40,738 nt of DNA from the IMG/VR virus record IMGVR_UViG_640753023_000013; one strand, written 5' to 3'. The DNA is from a virus. Its lineage: Duplodnaviria > Heunggongvirae > Uroviricota > Caudoviricetes. Positions 6,959-28,274 of this stretch are shown one piece after another; the stretch's first letter is position 1, and the number at the start of each line of letters is the position of its first letter. The position numbers and the translations under genes were made by a program. The notes under the pieces were generated by a model that searched no databases, was not told the DNA's origin, and was given only the letters and a program-made list of their open reading frames with translations.

Positions 6959-7092
6959 GGTTTGCAATTACCAAGTGGAGTGCTTATATTTACCTTTGAG
7001 ATAAATTTACATCGCACTCCTCTTGTGCCATAGTAATCGGGCACTGGCAAAATCCAGTGCCGGGATTGGCGTCCCGGATTACTAAAAGGCGC

Positions 7093-7118
7093 ATTCACCG
7101 CGCAAGCGGTTTTTTTAT
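7093..7118 (+). terminator. Short hairpin plus T-run in the leader of the BRO-N gene
   Basis: CCGCgcaaGCGG followed by ttttttt. Confidence 0.4.
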
Positions 7119-7273
7119 GCGTATAGCACGGCCACATTCGTATTATGGTGGGCTGTGTGGGGGCACCGAAAGGTGCGCCGGGTCCTTTTAGCCGGTTACG
7201 CCAACCCTGCACAGTTCACCACCAACCGATTGGCGTCGGTAGTGGTGATTAACCAGACTAAAAGGTAACCACT

Positions 7274-23435: not shown

Positions 23436-23728
23436 TCCTGTTCACTGGCCTCTTTGGCCATCTTCAAATACTGTTCAGGGCAATGCGCCATAACGCGCTG
23501 AAACAGCTCCAGCGCCAGATTGCGTTGCCCCTCATTAAATGCCATTGCCATAGCGTCCATCGGAGAGATAGCGGAAAACACCCGGCCTTTCTCCAGCACA
23601 GACCAGACAACGCGACGCCCCTGTTCACTGCTCATGACAAAGCGAATGTCATCAATTTCACGCTGCGCCATGTCACGTTGCTTACGGGCGTTTTCTTCTT
23701 TCAGTTGATCGTCTTCGTAATCTGTCAT
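23432..23728 (-). CDS. Hypothetical head morphogenesis protein
   Basis: 98 aa, overlaps portal stop and scaffold start. Confidence 0.5.
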   Translation of the reverse strand: MTDYEDDQLKEENARKQRDMAQREIDDIRFVMSSEQGRRVVWSVLEKGRVFSAISPMDAMAMAFNEGQRNLALELFQRVMAHCPEQYLKMAKEASEQE

Positions 23729-25404
23729 TGTGATTGCCCACCCTGACCACTAACTGCATTCGCCATAGCTGACAAAACACTCGGATCCGAAGTTTTAGCT
23801 TCGCTTAGCGTCTTGGCACCCTGTGCCGCCGCCATCCCCATCGCCATCATTTGTTGCTGCTGTTGCTGCTGTGCCCGTTGCTGGCGAGCCTGCTCAACCT
23901 GTTCCTGCGGAACAATGACGGTTGGAGACACTCCGGACATATCAGCGAATGCATCGATCGCCTGATCAACGTTGAGTTTGTCGAGAGCTTCTGGTTTCCC
24001 TTGCGCAAGTTGACCAATGAAGTTAACCGTGGACGCCAGACTGGACAGGCCGATAGACTTCTGCGCCTGAGCCATGACGGAAATGTATTCGACCTTCAGG
24101 GGCATGCCTTCCATCGCGTCAGGCGGTGGCGGCAGCATGTTTTTACGCACCATCATCGAGAAAGCGCGGTCAATGAGAGGATTAAGACATTCGTCGTTCA
24201 GACGCTCCAGAACCGGCCCCAACATCAGAAGTTTTTCTTCTTTCATTTCGATCACCGCTTCAACAGGCATCGAGCGGGTATTGATGTTCTGCAACATCAT
24301 GAACAGATCGACGAAGTAGGCGCTGTTGATGGTCTGCCGCGTATCTTGGATGTCGCTGATTAAATCCGCAGTGTTAGGGTTAACCTGATAAACAGGCCTT
24401 AATCCTTCCTGTCCAGTCAGTTGATCTACGTATGTGACGCCACCAGGAAGTAACGAAACACTCTGTGTTCTGAGGGTGGTAGGGGCAACCATCGGAGGGT
24501 TTGTCACTTTGTCGATGATCTGCGACTTGCGCTTCTGAAGAAGCTGCAATGCCTTAACAGGTCCAAGCGCCAGCATACCCGGGCATGATGATCCATAAAC
24601 ATCCTCGCCGTTAACTTCCCAGCGCGGAGCCATAATTGGAAACTCATCGAATCCGGACTCACGCAACAACTTGTCGTTATCGCCGCCAACCTCGTAATAA
24701 ACCGATTTGAATGGCTTGTTCTTGCTATCCAGCTTCGATGTATCGCGGTCAATGTTCGGGTAAACCGAATGCATCACTTCGATCCACTTCTCGTAGGTGC
24801 CGCTTTCCCACATGCTTTTTACGGATTCGCTGACGTTATTTAGCCCGAACTCCTGAACAAGCTGACGAACAGTCATAGAGAACTTGCGAAAACAGGTGTC
24901 AACACTGCCACGAGGTGAGTTAGCCAGGTAGTAACTGCCTATCGGGAATGGCATTGTGCGAATGATGTCCTCGTCATCCTCCAGCACTGCCATTGCACCA
25001 GTGCTGTATGTGCCGAGGCTTCCGTATAACTGCGGCAGCGACTGATAGAGATTCGACTTATTGAACATATCGTTCATGCGGTTCTGCACCGCCTCAAGCC
25101 ACAACTTAACAGGGCCATAATCCATCATTTCAGGATCTGGCGTAGCCAGGCGAAACCACGGACGCGCGGGGCTTGTGATGCCTGACATCATGCCGCTGGC
25201 GAGAGTGCGCGCCGCCATAGTCCCGGTCGAATCAATAATACGTGTATTGCGTCGATCGTTACGGTTGACCTCAGAAGTCAGAAAGCGGGAACCACGCGGG
25301 TTGATATAATCACTCAACTCGCGCCAGTGCGGCTCGAACGACTGACGCTCGCTTTCAAGTTGTGCGAACTGTTTGTTCAATCGCTCTTTAGTTGTTTCCG
25401 CCAT
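23725..25404 (-). CDS. Portal protein
   Basis: 559 aa, GGAG RBS, position and size. Confidence 0.7.
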   Translation of the reverse strand: MAETTKERLNKQFAQLESERQSFEPHWRELSDYINPRGSRFLTSEVNRNDRRNTRIIDSTGTMAARTLASGMMSGITSPARPWFRLATPDPEMMDYGPVKLWLEAVQNRMNDMFNKSNLYQSLPQLYGSLGTYSTGAMAVLEDDEDIIRTMPFPIGSYYLANSPRGSVDTCFRKFSMTVRQLVQEFGLNNVSESVKSMWESGTYEKWIEVMHSVYPNIDRDTSKLDSKNKPFKSVYYEVGGDNDKLLRESGFDEFPIMAPRWEVNGEDVYGSSCPGMLALGPVKALQLLQKRKSQIIDKVTNPPMVAPTTLRTQSVSLLPGGVTYVDQLTGQEGLRPVYQVNPNTADLISDIQDTRQTINSAYFVDLFMMLQNINTRSMPVEAVIEMKEEKLLMLGPVLERLNDECLNPLIDRAFSMMVRKNMLPPPPDAMEGMPLKVEYISVMAQAQKSIGLSSLASTVNFIGQLAQGKPEALDKLNVDQAIDAFADMSGVSPTVIVPQEQVEQARQQRAQQQQQQQMMAMGMAAAQGAKTLSEAKTSDPSVLSAMANAVSGQGGQSQ

Positions 25405-25418
25405 TTCAATGACTCCGG

Positions 25419-25625
25419 TTACTGACCAAGTAGCGTTTTACCGCTGGTATTAGCGGTTGATGTGTCGCCCTGAGAACCGGTAAGCAGCGTAGAACTACGA
25501 CCAGCAGCAGCGCGACGGCGACGTGTTTCTTCGTCGCGGGCATCAACAACGGCGGCATCCTGCTCCTGTGGTGCTGCCTGAACTTCTGGTGTTGCAGGCA
25601 CTGATGGTGAGCTACCCATGCACAT
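25419..25625 (-). CDS. Small hypothetical protein upstream of portal
   Basis: 68 aa, GGAG RBS; the overlapping 25406-25645 frame looks spurious. Confidence 0.35.
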   Translation of the reverse strand: MCMGSSPSVPATPEVQAAPQEQDAAVVDARDEETRRRRAAAGRSSTLLTGSQGDTSTANTSGKTLLGQ

Positions 25626-25715
25626 ATCAATGACTCCGTACGCAATTAAATTATTACCAATTTAACCACATATGATTTATTTATCGTAGATAGTTGACAT
25701 TTAACGCACAAATTA

Positions 25716-25730
25716 TTACCTTTCAGGTAG
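25716..25730. promoter_or_regulatory. Operator palindrome TTACC-TTTCA-GGTAg (site 3, one mismatch), next to a TTGACA -35-like hexamer at 25694-25699
   Basis: Same core and flank as site 1. Confidence 0.5.
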
Positions 25731-26052
25731 CTAAAGAGTTCATTCCGGTTACTAACCTGACTGGCTTGTCGTTAAATTGAACAGGTGGAGTGAGCTTTTG
25801 TTTTGAGCAGTACGGCGTATGGCACATGCGCCGATAGCGGTCTGGATACGTTTAAGGGGCACCCTCCCTTGCTCGGGCAAACGAACCAGGTAGCCGGAAT
25901 GTGCAAGTCGAGCGGTTTTATTCCGCGCACGGGGATTCACCATCCCGGCGATTCGGTGTGACGCCTCGGAAGAGACGAGGGTACAACGATGAGAGCATTT
26001 ATGGAGCCGCGACAAAGTGTGGCGCCTTAACAGGCTAAGTGCTCTCAGCGTT

Positions 26053-26129
26053 GTGGCATTAGCTCAGTTGGACAGAGCAACCGCCTTCTAAGCGGTTGGT
26101 CGCGGGTTCGAATCCTGCATGCCACGCCA
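26053..26129 (+). tRNA. tRNA-Arg (anticodon TCT, reads AGA), phage-encoded
   Basis: Cloverleaf: acceptor GTGGCAT/ATGCCAC, anticodon stem ACCGC/GCGGT with loop CTTCTAA, T-loop GGTTCGAATCC, genomic CCA; differs from E. coli argU in acceptor and anticodon stems. Confidence 0.9.
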
Positions 26130-26292
26130 GAATCACGCCTAAGGACCGTGATGCCAGAAGTTCCAGGTACTTGGCGGTGATGGTTTCCCTTGAAGGACTA
26201 TCACCGCTCTTTTTACAGCAGGACGCCATTGCGATGACTTCATGCTGTAAACCCGTACAGCCACGGAAGGCATAACTCATTGCTTCCAGTTC

Positions 26293-26316
26293 GCCCGGTT
26301 CGCCGGGCATTTTTTT
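26293..26316 (+). terminator. Rho-independent terminator after the tRNA
   Basis: GCCCGG-ttcg-CCGGGC followed by atttttt. Confidence 0.65.
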
Positions 26317-26327
26317 AAGGTGAGATT

Positions 26328-26708
26328 ATGAACGACCAGCAAATCGAAAAAGAAATTGTTGAGAAAGGCAAAACGGCACCGCGAATCACTCCTCAGCACA
26401 TCGAAGACGTGATTAAAAGCGAGCATTACTTTACTGCTTATGATGGACGTAATGGTGCAATTTCCAGCAACGAATATTGTGGCAGAGAAAAACCAGAAGA
26501 AGGTGATCGTGATTTATCACCATTGAAGTTGCTCACTTTCTGCGTACTGGTGCTGAAGAATGGCTTCACCGTCACCGGAGAGAGCGCCTGTGCAAGCCCG
26601 GAAAATTTTGATGCAGAAATTGGTCGGAAGATTGCCCGGCAGAATGCTGTAAACAAAATCTGGATGCTTGAAGGTTACTTGCTGAAGCAGAAGTTAAGCG
26701 AGCAATAA
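26328..26708 (+). CDS. Phage protein of the gp49/gene-66 type (unknown function)
   Basis: 126 aa on the opposite strand to its neighbours; family assignment from recalled similarity only. Confidence 0.55.
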   Translation: MNDQQIEKEIVEKGKTAPRITPQHIEDVIKSEHYFTAYDGRNGAISSNEYCGREKPEEGDRDLSPLKLLTFCVLVLKNGFTVTGESACASPENFDAEIGRKIARQNAVNKIWMLEGYLLKQKLSEQ

Positions 26709-26712
26709 CACC

Positions 26713-26724
26713 GTGACATGTCAC
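26713..26724. repeat. Palindrome GTGACATGTCAC (copy 2 of 3)
   Basis: Perfect 12-bp palindrome 5 nt after the stop of the 26328 gene. Confidence 0.7.
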
Positions 26725-26728
26725 AAAC

Positions 26729-26755
26729 AGCCAGCCTATGAGCTGGCTTTGTTTT
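26729..26755 (+). terminator. Rho-independent terminator
   Basis: AGCCAGC-ctatga-GCTGGCT followed by ttgtttt. Confidence 0.65.
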
Positions 26756-26798
26756 ATCCTCACCAGAGGATATCAACGACATTATCCCCACCAGCGGA

Positions 26799-28274
26799 TT
26801 AAGCATAGGGATCGTAATCTGTGATGGCCTTGCCTTGCTGGTTCTGCTGCCCGGGAATTCGCAGACGCTTCGACACAGGGAACGCAAACGTCAGCAGTAG
26901 CGCATCGCCTTTACCCGGCGAACGCCCAAGTCGCTCTTTGATATCTTCCTTCGGTTCGATAACGATTTTACCGTCCACGCGAACTTTGTACTCTGCCGCC
27001 GACAGGTCGTCCGCTGTTTCCTGGTCATCCAGCATGCCGCCCAGCCTCAGCCATGTCTTGCATGAGTTGAACATCTCCCCACGCTTGTTAAGCATCTGCG
27101 GGTCAGTAGACGCGCCACCGAACGGAACAAGTTGCCATGTACGCCCCCAACCGTCACCGATTGACTTCAGACCGGTACCGTAACCGAAGTCGATGAACAC
27201 CGCGTCAGCCTGGTACTGGTCTTCAAAGTCAGCGATACGCTTCGCCATAATCAGATCGTCGGTGGTCTTGTTGCCAGTCCACAGCACCTTACTGTGTAGC
27301 CCCTGCCGCAGGTATATCACAGCGTCATCAACGCCGGAGTATGCCGGGTCAACGCCGATTATCACCGGAGAATGTGCAACCTGCGCAGCGGTTACCACCC
27401 GTTTCATTGCCTCGTCAGTAAGACCGGTAGGGATAAACTGCAATTCAGATGCATCAGGGAATATGCCACGCACACGGATTTTAACGAAGTCGCTGTCTTC
27501 CCCGTAGTCATCAACCCATTTCTGCAACTGCTGTTTGTTGGTACCTTCCACCGTCCGACTGTCAATCTGCGCAGTTTTCCAGCGGTGTTTATACTTGCGG
27601 AAACATTCACGGAAACGTCCGGTATTACGCGTCGGGTTTCCGAACGCCACCCAGATAATCTCAGTGTCTTCGTCCGTTAGCGCACCCTCGGCAACTTCCC
27701 ACACCAGATCCGCAATGTTCGACGCTTCATCGAATACCACGATGATGCGTTTGCGCTCGTTGTGTAGTCCGGCGAATGCCTCAGTGTTGTGCTCAGACCA
27801 GGGTATTGCGTCAGCCCGCCACCGCTTGTCGTGCCCTGGGTCATTGCTGTACATCGCGGTAGCAGTACAGGTAAACCAGTCTTTCGTGATAGCAAGGTTC
27901 GACCACTTGATAATTTCCGGCCAGGTCTTCGTTCGTAGCTGGTTGTCGGTGTTGGCGGTCACCACGACCTTACAATCCTCGCAAGTGGACATGCCCCAGT
28001 TGATCAGCATTGAGATGAATGCGGATTTACCAATACCGTGACCAGAAGCGCGTGCCAGCATAAGCGGCTGATAGCGCGTCTCTGGATTCTGCAGGTGATC
28101 ACGTATCTCTCGGAACGCATCAGCCTGCCATTGACGTGGGCCGGTAGCATGTGCCAGTTCAGTCCCCTCTTCCCCCCACGGGAACGCATAGAGGGCATAG
28201 CCAAGCGGATCGTGAGTGAACCCTGCAATATCCTCGATCAACTGCTCTTCAGGAGATAACGCTGTATCTGTCAC
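26799..28274 (-). CDS. Terminase large subunit
   Basis: Walker A-like GHGIGKS, 491 aa, GTG start overlapping terminase small stop. Confidence 0.85.
   Translation of the reverse strand: MTDTALSPEEQLIEDIAGFTHDPLGYALYAFPWGEEGTELAHATGPRQWQADAFREIRDHLQNPETRYQPLMLARASGHGIGKSAFISMLINWGMSTCEDCKVVVTANTDNQLRTKTWPEIIKWSNLAITKDWFTCTATAMYSNDPGHDKRWRADAIPWSEHNTEAFAGLHNERKRIIVVFDEASNIADLVWEVAEGALTDEDTEIIWVAFGNPTRNTGRFRECFRKYKHRWKTAQIDSRTVEGTNKQQLQKWVDDYGEDSDFVKIRVRGIFPDASELQFIPTGLTDEAMKRVVTAAQVAHSPVIIGVDPAYSGVDDAVIYLRQGLHSKVLWTGNKTTDDLIMAKRIADFEDQYQADAVFIDFGYGTGLKSIGDGWGRTWQLVPFGGASTDPQMLNKRGEMFNSCKTWLRLGGMLDDQETADDLSAAEYKVRVDGKIVIEPKEDIKERLGRSPGKGDALLLTFAFPVSKRLRIPGQQNQQGKAITDYDPYA

What the first reader, a model, noticed from the sequence alone, without database searches (positions are those of the whole stretch)
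25626..26052. GC-rich 430-bp non-coding stretch upstream of the tRNA
The only ORFs here (25752-26015 and the minus-strand frame over the tRNA) are His/Arg/Cys-rich and look spurious. The region has several local hairpins (for example GGGGATTCACCATCCCGG) and lies downstream of a TTGACA promoter-like element, so it may be a structured non-coding RNA co-transcribed with the tRNA.
Basis: inference. Interest (0 to 1): 0.4.

Follow-up and report, generated by a model that had tools for sequence, protein, structure and literature searches.

The report
Unlisted structured phage leader RNA
The stretch upstream of the phage tRNA-Arg is not a gene but a highly folded RNA, absent from the RNA family catalogue and the papers I could search, that sits at the head of early operons in many temperate phages of enteric bacteria (about a third of complete E. 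coli genomes) and whose job is still unknown.

Summary
The window is a phiV10/epsilon15-like prophage. The 427-bp stretch has two parts. The AT-rich 5' part (34.8% GC) holds a conserved promoter, TTGACA-17-TACCTT, overlapped by an operator-like palindrome. The 3' part (57.6% GC) holds a structured RNA. 'Domain A' (25810-25983) has six helices and two candidate pseudoknots. In 40 diverse homologues 95% of pair cells are paired, against 30-40% when the partners are slid, and 17 pairs carry compensatory changes. A 14-16 bp 'module B' stem (25983-26054) abuts tRNA-Arg. None of the local ORFs is conserved. No Rfam 15 family matches, and HK022/HK639 put RNAs are not related. The same domain follows the cI repressor at the pL position in lambdoid phages (70 of 118 distinct loci). 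It also lies upstream of ban in P1/P7, and 1839 of 5426 complete E. coli genomes carry it without annotation. Function is inferred only. My best guess (about 0.35-0.4) is a co-transcriptional early-leader element that helps RNA polymerase pass the two downstream terminators and is then cut off by RNase P. The main rival (about 0.3) is a released, trans-acting RNA.

The parts
25694..25722 (+). Early promoter: -35 TTGACA (25694-25699), 17-nt spacer, -10 TACCTT (25717-25722). The start site is inferred near 25729.
   Evidence: Conserved as TTGACA-17-TACCTT/TACCCT in 20 distinct Uetakevirus-type leaders. Not called by the generic scan. The start site is an inference.
25715..25731 (.). Operator-like palindrome ATTACCTTTCAGGTAGC overlapping the -10.
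   Evidence: ATTACC-N5-GGTAAT occurs 12 times in the window against 1.2 expected, and 0 of 100 shuffles reach 12. The homologous site in epsilon15 is annotated as repressor and IHF binding.
25734..25799 (+). Variable 5' leader module ('module X'): a long stem AAAGAGUUCA.../...UGAGCUUUU enclosing GUCGUUAAAU.
   Evidence: Paired in the MFE fold. Present or absent among relatives, whose leaders run 87-283 nt. Compensatory differences against epsilon15 and Tyrion (AAAGCGCGCU/AGCGCGCUUU) were seen by eye.
25810..25983 (+). Domain A, the conserved pseudoknotted core. H1 25813-25833 (loop UGGCACA). P2 25838-25844 with 25887-25896. Invariant GGAAUGUGCAAG 25896-25907. P4 25907-25909 with 25947-25949. 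P5 25932-25946 (loop UUCACCA). PK1 25938-25941 with 25955-25958. PK2 25822-25826 with 25900-25904. P6 25964-25980 (loop GAAGAGA).
   Evidence: The covariance model R1 hits here only: 133.8 bits, E 5e-45. RNAalifold gives 30 pairs, 16 of them compensatory. Coordinates were mapped.
25983..26054 (+). Module B: a long closing stem, ACAACGAUGAGAGCA (25983-25997) with UGCUCUCAGCGUUGU (26040-26054), and a variable interior. It contains the ATG at 25989.
   Evidence: The two arms form 14-16 pairs in all 28 distinct variants, with GC/AU/CG swaps at five positions. Recovered in single-sequence folds.
26053..26129 (+). tRNA-Arg (anticodon UCU) with encoded CCA. It marks the presumed RNase P cut that would free the upstream RNA.
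   Evidence: ARAGORN. Rfam tRNA 70.1 bits. RNase P processing is inferred from established tRNA biology.
26132..26152 (+). Conserved hairpin AUCACG-CCUAAGGAC-CGUGAU after the tRNA.
   Evidence: Read from the sequence. The same hairpin follows the tRNA or the tRNA-like module in many related loci.
26173..26214 (+). Intrinsic terminator-like T1: a 14-bp stem followed by CUUUUU.
   Evidence: Terminator scan. Hairpin energy -20.3 kcal/mol. Conserved as GGCGG...CCGC-U-run in relatives.
26293..26316 (+). Intrinsic terminator-like T2, GCCCGGUUCGCCGGGC followed by AUUUUUUU, 11 nt before the start codon of the next ORF.
   Evidence: Terminator scan. Conserved in epsilon15 and Tyrion.
26328..26708 (+). 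Downstream ORF of the same unit, 126 aa, Phage_gp49_66 family.
   Evidence: ORF list. Pfam PF13876, E 3.4e-35. phrog_322, function unknown.

Best explanation
Shown. Window 25810-26054 (+) encodes a non-coding RNA with a conserved, pseudoknotted fold: Domain A plus the module B stem. It lies between a conserved promoter with an operator-like palindrome and tRNA-Arg. It belongs to a large RNA family, not listed in Rfam 15, found in temperate phages of Enterobacteriaceae.

Inferred. The RNA is the structured head of an early transcription unit. That unit is off in the lysogen and on after infection or induction. It runs promoter, leader, Domain A, module B, tRNA-Arg, terminator T1, terminator T2, gp49-family ORF.

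Proposed mechanism. Domain A folds as it leaves RNA polymerase. It then acts on the elongation complex, either directly or through host factors, so that polymerase reads through T1, T2 and Rho-dependent stops in the long untranslated leader. This would play the role that putL or nutL plays at the same map position in other lambdoid phages. RNase P cleavage at the 5' end of tRNA-Arg, or of the tRNA-like modules that replace it elsewhere, would then detach the RNA. Its 3' end would stay protected inside the module B stem.

The confidence given (0.38) is for the proposed mechanism. That the element is a genuine structured non-coding RNA of a family not listed in Rfam I hold at about 0.95.
For: - Structure: 95.3% of pair cells are paired against 30-40% in the slid controls. 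17 pairs have double changes. The covariation score is 0.283 against 0.139 in shuffles, beaten by 0 of 500. The module B stem is kept in 28 variants.
- Non-coding.
- Not in Rfam.
- Position: 70 of 118 distinct loci have a cI-like repressor gene on the same strand ending a median 162 nt upstream, which is the pL-leader position (annotated examples).
- Early, repressor-linked units in other phage types too: the conserved promoter and operator in Uetakevirus relatives and the C1-controlled ban operon of P1/P7.
- Terminators: terminator-like hairpins with U tracts lie downstream in 80 of 111 non-P1 loci, 0.77 per locus on the sense strand against 0.35 antisense. In the window T2 ends 11 nt before the ORF start codon, so I see no room for a separate promoter after T2 (inference).
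- No N gene is annotated at the canonical place in mEp460, mEp390, ST101-KPC2phi6.3 or BUCT709.
- Downstream genes are diverse (ban, gp49-like, Tad2-like, unknown families). That fits a general transcription device rather than a gene-specific sensor.
- The put paper states that put RNA stays active when it is no longer tethered to the transcript. Release by RNase P is therefore compatible with this role (PMC9378689).
Against: - No transcription or antitermination data exist for this element.
- There is no sequence or model similarity to HK022 or HK639 put RNAs.
- In P1/P7 the domain lies about 2.4 kb from the ban operator/promoter, and only 1 of 8 P1-type loci has a terminator-like site within 1 kb downstream.
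- epsilon15 has lost most of the domain yet keeps T2 and the ORF.
- A tRNA or tRNA-like module follows the domain in at least 79 of 127 distinct loci. This fits a released, trans-acting RNA just as well.
- At 175 nt with two pseudoknots, the domain is far larger than the roughly 70-nt put RNA.
Confidence: 0.38

Rival explanations
1. A discrete, stable, trans-acting RNA. The leader is cut out by RNase P at the downstream tRNA or tRNA-like module. It then acts elsewhere in the cell, for example as a decoy or sponge for a host protein or defence factor during early infection.
For: - A tRNA-Arg or a GUGG-initiated tRNA-like module follows in at least 79 of 127 distinct loci.
- In P1/P7 a tRNA-Ile sits 17 nt upstream.
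- The module B stem would bury the 3' end.
- A 12-nt invariant strand and two pseudoknots suggest recognition by a conserved partner.
- Neighbouring genes include Tad2-like anti-defence domains and other accessory genes.
- The P1 context has no terminators to overcome.
Against: - There is no dedicated terminator directly after the RNA.
- No partner has been identified.
- The strict pL-leader position in lambdoid phages is not required for a trans-acting RNA.
- RNase P cleavage is itself untested.
Confidence: 0.3
2. A riboswitch-like sensor. Domain A would be an aptamer for a metabolite, ion or tRNA, and would control downstream termination or translation.
For: - Highly conserved unpaired nucleotides sit in a pseudoknotted multi-helix core with variable peripheral loops.
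- In P1/P7 the ban ribosome-binding site can pair with an upstream strand about 60 nt after the domain (read by eye).
Against: - Downstream genes have no common function.
- In most loci the next elements are module B and a tRNA or tRNA-like module, not an expression platform. Terminators begin a median 194 nt further on.
- No Rfam riboswitch matches, even at E up to 10.
Confidence: 0.08
3. A processing or stability scaffold only. The structure would merely protect the early transcript and the tRNA precursor from Rho and RNases, with no specific partner.
For: - The whole leader is strongly folded, z = -4.3.
- Modules are gained and lost freely among relatives.
Against: Generic protection does not explain a 12-nt invariant strand, conserved loop sequences and pseudoknots kept across three unrelated phage types at 70-80% overall identity.
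Confidence: 0.1
4. In Uetakevirus only, an antisense regulator. The plus-strand early RNA lies inside the minus-strand terminase-to-portal late gene block and could pair with the late transcript.
For: Terminase (26799-28274) and gp3/portal (25625-23725) are on the minus strand on either side of the plus-strand unit.
Against: The same domain is found in lambdoid phages and P1, where there is no convergent late operon. This could therefore be at most a secondary effect.
Confidence: 0.04
5. A protein-coding gene, a decayed gene or a DNA-level site (for example a single-strand initiation signal), and not a functional RNA.
For: - Open frames of 45-87 aa exist in the window.
- Some deposited genomes annotate CDS over the element.
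Against: - No ORF is conserved, and indels are mostly not multiples of three.
- Compensatory changes include strand-specific G-U pairs.
- The element always has the orientation of the surrounding transcription unit.
Confidence: 0.02

Closest known systems
HK022 putL/putR and the HK639 putL-like antiterminator RNAs
   Same: A structured RNA encoded just downstream of the early promoter pL of a lambdoid phage, in an operon with downstream terminators and no N gene at the usual place. HK639 likewise has one such element, in the left operon (PMC9378689).
   Different: No detectable similarity by blastn, covariance model or nhmmer. The domain is about 175 nt with two candidate pseudoknots, against about 70 nt with two stems. 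It also occurs in podophages and in P1. Activity on RNA polymerase is untested.
Lambda-type nut sites (boxA, boxB, N protein)
   Same: The same map position as nutL. P6 is a 5-bp hairpin with an A/G-rich loop (GAAGAGA). It recurs as UGAC-stem-GAAAGA-stem in related leaders. The 3' strand of module B resembles boxA (UGCUCUUU / CGCUCUUU).
   Different: The loop is 6-7 nt rather than a 5-nt GNRA-like loop. The boxA-like string lies 3' of the hairpin and is base-paired, with covariation. No N gene is annotated, and no second site follows cro.
T4 species 1 and 2 RNAs (rnaC, rnaD), stable RNAs co-transcribed with phage tRNAs (from my own knowledge)
   Same: Phage non-coding RNAs of unknown function made in the same transcript as tRNAs and released by tRNA-processing enzymes.
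   Different: These come from a virulent phage and are much smaller. No relationship was tested or expected. Here the RNA also occurs without a tRNA.
GOLLD and ROOL, large structured RNAs of prophages next to tRNA genes (from my own knowledge; their Rfam models were searched)
   Same: Ornate phage-borne RNAs that often neighbour tRNA genes and whose function is unknown.
   Different: No Rfam hit. Those RNAs are much larger (about 600-800 nt) and occur in other bacterial groups. This RNA is tied to early promoters.
MALAT1-mascRNA type 3'-end formation by RNase P at a tRNA-like structure (from my own knowledge)
   Same: A long structured RNA followed directly by a tRNA or tRNA-like element that would define its 3' end through RNase P.
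   Different: That system is eukaryotic. Here the cleavage is only inferred.

Membership tests
put antiterminator RNA (HK022, HK639) | Sequence/structure homology to putL/putR | tested here: not met
   blastn against the HK022 immunity region gave chance matches only. The covariance model R1 gave no hit at E up to 10 in HK022 (L012) or HK639 (L133), which carries an annotated putL-like RNA. nhmmer with filters off gave no hit in the put regions.
put antiterminator RNA (HK022, HK639) | Encoded just downstream of the early promoter pL of a lambdoid phage | tested here: met
   70 of 118 distinct loci have a cI-like gene on the same strand ending a median 162 nt upstream.
put antiterminator RNA (HK022, HK639) | Suppresses terminators by binding the RNA polymerase beta' zinc-binding domain without a phage protein | not testable with these tools
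   This needs read-through assays and rpoC mutants. Only the presence of downstream terminator-like sites could be counted.
Lambda-type nut site | boxB hairpin with a 5-nt GNRA-like loop | tested here: inconclusive
   P6 has a covarying 5-bp stem and a 7-nt GAAGAGA/GAAGAGU loop. It is similar in flavour but not in length.
Lambda-type nut site | Single-stranded boxA 5' of boxB | tested here: not met
   The boxA-like string is 3' of P6 and forms the 3' strand of the module B helix, with compensatory changes.
Lambda-type nut site | An N gene next to the site, and a second site (nutR) after cro | tested here: not met
   No N is annotated or recognised in the first ORFs. The window has one copy. 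No similar hairpin lies on the cro side of the lambdoid loci scanned (L002, L006, L009, L011).
Any Rfam 15 family | Covariance-model match at the gathering score, or at E up to 10 | tested here: not met
   Window and 15 related loci at the gathering score, and 25550-26350 and L002 2880-3600 at E up to 10: only the tRNA and unrelated weak hits were found.
Riboswitch | Association with a functionally coherent set of downstream genes | tested here: not met
   Downstream ORFs are Ban helicase, Phage_gp49_66, Tad2-like, phrog_204, phrog_14171 and others.
Riboswitch | Ligand binding by the conserved core | not testable with these tools
   This needs biochemical probing.
Protein-coding gene | A conserved open reading frame with frame-preserving indels | tested here: not met
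   0, 1, 7 and 1 of 39 representatives keep the four window ORFs intact. Indel runs by length mod 3 are 49/179/118.
Structured non-coding RNA (generic) | Base pairs maintained by compensatory substitutions beyond the controls | tested here: met
   17 pairs and 128 cells have double changes, against 10.5 and 44.9 in shuffles. 95.3% of cells are paired, against 30-40% in the slid controls. Caveat: most sequences were collected with a pattern that fixes two conserved strings, so conservation of those strings is partly by construction.

The most novel reading that the evidence does not exclude
Domain A is the core of a new class of phage RNA. It would be a protein-independent, pseudoknotted device that reprograms a conserved host machine, either RNA polymerase processivity or a tRNA-directed or defence factor. 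It is carried on modular leader RNAs that are punctuated by tRNAs and tRNA mimics and cut apart by RNase P. It is present, unannotated, in about a third of complete E. coli genomes and in phage P1.
Probability: 0.3. Interest if true: 0.85.

Novelty: new variant of a known kind. Interest (0 to 1): 0.68.

Why it matters
If the family is real and active, a very common and so far unannotated RNA heads the early operons of many temperate coliphages, including phiV10-type phages, Stx2c-converting phages, mEp460, cdtI and P1/P7.

It would offer a second, structurally unrelated example beside put of an RNA that controls early phage transcription. Alternatively it would be a new released phage RNA that acts on the host.

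It also corrects deposited annotations that place CDS over it. And it points to a modular organisation of early leaders, in which structured modules are separated by tRNAs or tRNA mimics. That organisation can be tested directly in standard E. coli genetics.

Tried and rejected
- Rfam at gathering and permissive thresholds found nothing but the tRNA.
- Homology to HK022 or HK639 put RNAs was rejected. A 14-nt match in HK022 lies inside a coding region.
- The conserved 13-aa sORF (ATG at 25989) that I first considered was rejected. The ATG and its apparent Shine-Dalgarno lie in covarying helices.
- The boxA/boxC reading of the module B 3' strand was set aside because that strand is paired.
- A specific link between the P3 loop and the T1 loop proved weak. 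The longest shared string averages 5.8 nt within a locus, 5.2 nt between lineages and 4.7 nt for random stretches. One lineage, however, shares 13 nt.
- My first strict terminator finder missed the long-looped T1 type. I replaced it with a fold-based count.
- The genome contigs pattern was too loose. Only 12 of the first 100 loci were true hits by the covariance model, all in Enterobacteriaceae.
- Literature searches found no description of the element. The Pas sRNAs and the 'tug-of-war' riboswitches are unrelated. The P1 genome paper was not available.

Full report
**What the window is.** The region matches phiV10, TL-2011b and other Uetakevirus (epsilon15-like) phages at 98-99% identity. On the minus strand lie the large terminase (26799-28274), a small gp3-like ORF (25419-25625) and the portal gene (23725-25404). 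Between them sits a plus-strand insert: the finding, then tRNA-Arg(tct) at 26053-26129, two terminator-like hairpins and a 126-aa ORF. That ORF belongs to Pfam Phage_gp49_66.

**Check of the observation.** The stretch is non-coding, but it is not uniformly GC-rich.
- 25626-25809 is 34.8% GC and 25810-26052 is 57.6% GC. The whole stretch is 47.8% against 48.9% for the window.
- The four local ORFs are not conserved in 39 representative homologues. They are intact in 0, 1, 7 and 1 of them.
- Indel runs are mostly not multiples of three: 49/179/118 by length mod 3.
- The TTGACA at 25694 is followed after 17 nt by TACCTT.
- This arrangement, together with an overlapping palindrome ATTACC-N5-GGTAAT, is conserved in 20 distinct relatives. 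Their leaders between promoter and first conserved hairpin vary from 87 to 283 nt.
- The palindrome occurs 12 times in the window against 1.2 expected. In epsilon15 the homologous site is annotated as a repressor and IHF site.
- I therefore read the AT-rich part as an early promoter that is probably under repressor control. This is an inference.

**The conserved RNA.** Similarity searches showed that the GC-rich part is not confined to this phage group.
- At about 82% identity it occurs in lambdoid phages (cdtI, mEp460, Stx2c-converting phages, Ayreon, 2H10).
- At about 80% identity its first 165 nt occur in P1, P7, D6, SJ46 and RCS47.
- At 70-77% identity it occurs in Klebsiella and Enterobacter phages and in a phage recorded on Stenotrophomonas.
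- 1839 of 5426 complete E. coli genomes carry it. RefSeq annotates nothing at it apart from the adjoining tRNA-Arg.
- True hits in species-representative genomes were all Enterobacteriaceae.

**The structure.** I aligned 40 representatives that are less than 93% identical (alignment A1).
- RNAalifold predicts 30 pairs, 16 of them with compensatory double changes.
- I then counted a structure that adds two candidate pseudoknots. 95.3% of pair cells are paired, against 30-40% when the partners are slid by 1-3 columns.
- 17 pairs and 128 cells carry double changes, against 10.5 and 44.9 in shuffles.
- The covariation score is 0.283 against 0.139, reached by 0 of 500 shuffles.
- In window coordinates:
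  - H1 is 25813-25833.
  - P2 is 25838-25844 with 25887-25896.
  - P4 is 25907-25909 with 25947-25949.
- P5 is 25932-25946.
  - P6 is 25964-25980.
- PK1 pairs the P5 loop CACC with GGUG at 25955-25958. It covaries to AACC/GGUU in the two mEp460-type representatives, L002 and L102.
- PK2 pairs the H1 loop GCACA with the invariant UGUGC. Both sides never vary, so it cannot be tested.
- Caveat: most sequences were collected with a pattern that fixes GGAATGTGCAAG, ACCA and GGCG. The invariance of those strings is therefore partly by construction. The helices were not part of the pattern.

**Module B and the rest of the transcript.** After P6 comes a long stem, 25983-25997 with 26040-26054, with a variable interior.
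- All 28 distinct variants form 14-16 pairs, with GC/AU/CG exchanges at five positions.
- The ATG at 25989 and its apparent Shine-Dalgarno are therefore helix strands. The CDS annotated over them in Tyrion, mEp460 and mEp390 are probably spurious.
- The last two pairs of this stem use the first two nucleotides of the tRNA.
- The predicted transcript from about 25729 to the U tract of T1 folds at -194 kcal/mol, against -166.6 +/- 6.4 for shuffles, z = -4.3.

**Not a known family.** Rfam 15 finds only the tRNA here and in 15 related loci, even at E up to 10. A covariance model built from A1 finds exactly one copy in the window, at 133.8 bits. It finds nothing in HK022 or in HK639, whose record carries an annotated putL-like RNA. 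nhmmer agrees. Full-text searches found no description of the element.

**Context.**
- In 70 of 118 distinct loci with enough upstream sequence, a cI-like repressor gene lies on the same strand and ends a median 162 nt upstream. A terminator and a promoter lie in between. This is the place of pL and nutL or putL in lambdoid phages.
- In P1/P7 the domain, without module B, lies between tRNA-Ile and ban in the C1-controlled ban operon.
- What follows module B:
  - the same tRNA-Arg in 21 of 127 distinct loci;
  - a GUGG-initiated module in 58;
  - ban, with no module B, in 8 (P1-type);
  - other arrangements in 40.
- By eye the GUGG-initiated module has an acceptor stem, a D-arm and a T-arm-like hairpin, with a covarying loop-loop pairing. 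ARAGORN and Rfam do not call it a tRNA.
- Terminator-like hairpins with U tracts lie within 1 kb downstream in 80 of 111 non-P1 loci, 0.77 per locus on the sense strand against 0.35 antisense. Only 1 of 8 P1-type loci has one.
- Downstream ORFs are diverse. They include Ban, Phage_gp49_66, Tad2-like domains and several families of unknown function.

**How it most likely works.** Nothing here shows function. What follows is inference.
- The constant features are three. The element lies in early phage units: repressor control is annotated for the P1/P7 ban operon and inferred elsewhere from position and operator-like sites. It always has the orientation of that unit. It lies upstream of terminators and accessory genes.
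- In the window T2 ends 11 nt before the ORF start codon. I see no room for a separate promoter after T2, so the ORF should be reached only by read-through.
- My leading model (about 0.35-0.4) is therefore a co-transcriptional processivity element with the role of putL or nutL, later detached by RNase P at the tRNA.
- The put paper notes that put RNA stays active when it is no longer tethered to the transcript, so detachment is compatible (PMC9378689).
- Four things count against this model. There is no similarity to put. The P1 context has no nearby terminators. epsilon15 lost 343 bp of the element by recombination between identical 13-nt loop sequences, yet it keeps T2 and the ORF. And the regular pairing with a tRNA or tRNA-like module suits a released, trans-acting RNA equally well (about 0.3).
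- A riboswitch is unlikely because the downstream genes share no function. A mere stability scaffold does not explain the invariant strands. Coding and DNA-site readings are effectively excluded.

**Verdict.** The element is a real structured RNA. It is the window's copy of a large family that is absent from Rfam 15 and from the literature I could search. It resembles put and nut in position but is not a member of either family.

Noticed in passing
window 7041-7116 and 7141-7226 (+): Rfam gathering-score hits to isrK (77.9 bits) and C4 antisense RNA (77.7 bits), side by side. The same pair lies beside the immunity region of mEp460 and an Stx2c phage (L002 706-894, L003 776-964).
   Followed up: no
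window 2720, 6609, 8041, 25715, 28866, 28884, 31933, 31995, 33897, 34282, 34994, 35056: Operator-like palindrome ATTACC-N5-GGTAAT at 12 sites, against 1.2 expected by chance. Several sites cluster around the putative repressor region at 34-35 kb, and one overlaps the -10 of the promoter studied here.
   Followed up: partly
L002 3236-3370; L008 about 2192-2290; L113, L095, L067; HK639 L133 33830-33700 (-): tRNA-like modules (GUGGUGA, a D-arm-like hairpin, a variable insert, a T-arm-like hairpin, UCACCAC) sit where the window has tRNA-Arg. Their two loops can pair (GCUGAU/AUCAGC), and this pairing covaries (GCUAAU/AUUAGC in L095). ARAGORN and the Rfam tRNA model do not call them.
   Followed up: partly
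L001 (epsilon15) 2839-2851, compared with L050: epsilon15 lacks 343 bp: most of Domain A, module B and the following module. The deletion lies between two identical 13-nt copies of TTCCCTTGATGCT, one in the P3 loop and one in the T1 terminator loop of a 95%-identical relative. A short YCCUUR motif is common to both loops in other lineages, but the excess over controls is small.
   Followed up: partly
L007 2101-2262 (Tyrion BI095_gp54); L002 2943-3311 (mEp460_037); L009 2011-2253 (mEp390_036): Deposited CDS overlap the structured RNA. Their start codons or frames fall in covarying helices and are not conserved, so they are probably mis-annotations.
   Followed up: partly
L093, L049 and related loci, downstream of Domain A; window 26328-26708: Accessory ORFs behind the RNA include two clusters with a Tad2-like (Thoeris anti-defence 2) domain. 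In the window the ORF is a Phage_gp49_66 protein of unknown function.
   Followed up: partly
L006 2376-2391, 2426-2441, 2931-2946; L009 2288-2303; window 25964-25980: A hairpin of the form UGAC(N), 5-bp stem, GAAAGA or GAAGAGA loop recurs up to four times per leader, in every case on the sense strand of the leader. This suggests a repeated binding site for an unknown factor.
   Followed up: no
window 25694-26760 (+) within 23725-28274 (-): The early plus-strand unit is embedded antisense in the terminase-to-portal late gene block. Late transcription must therefore cross the complement of the RNA, the tRNA and the ORF.
   Followed up: no
L007 3098-3162 (+): Rfam int-alpA RNA hit (44 bits; gathering score 35.8) in phage Tyrion, between two small ORFs of the same plus-strand insert.
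   Followed up: no
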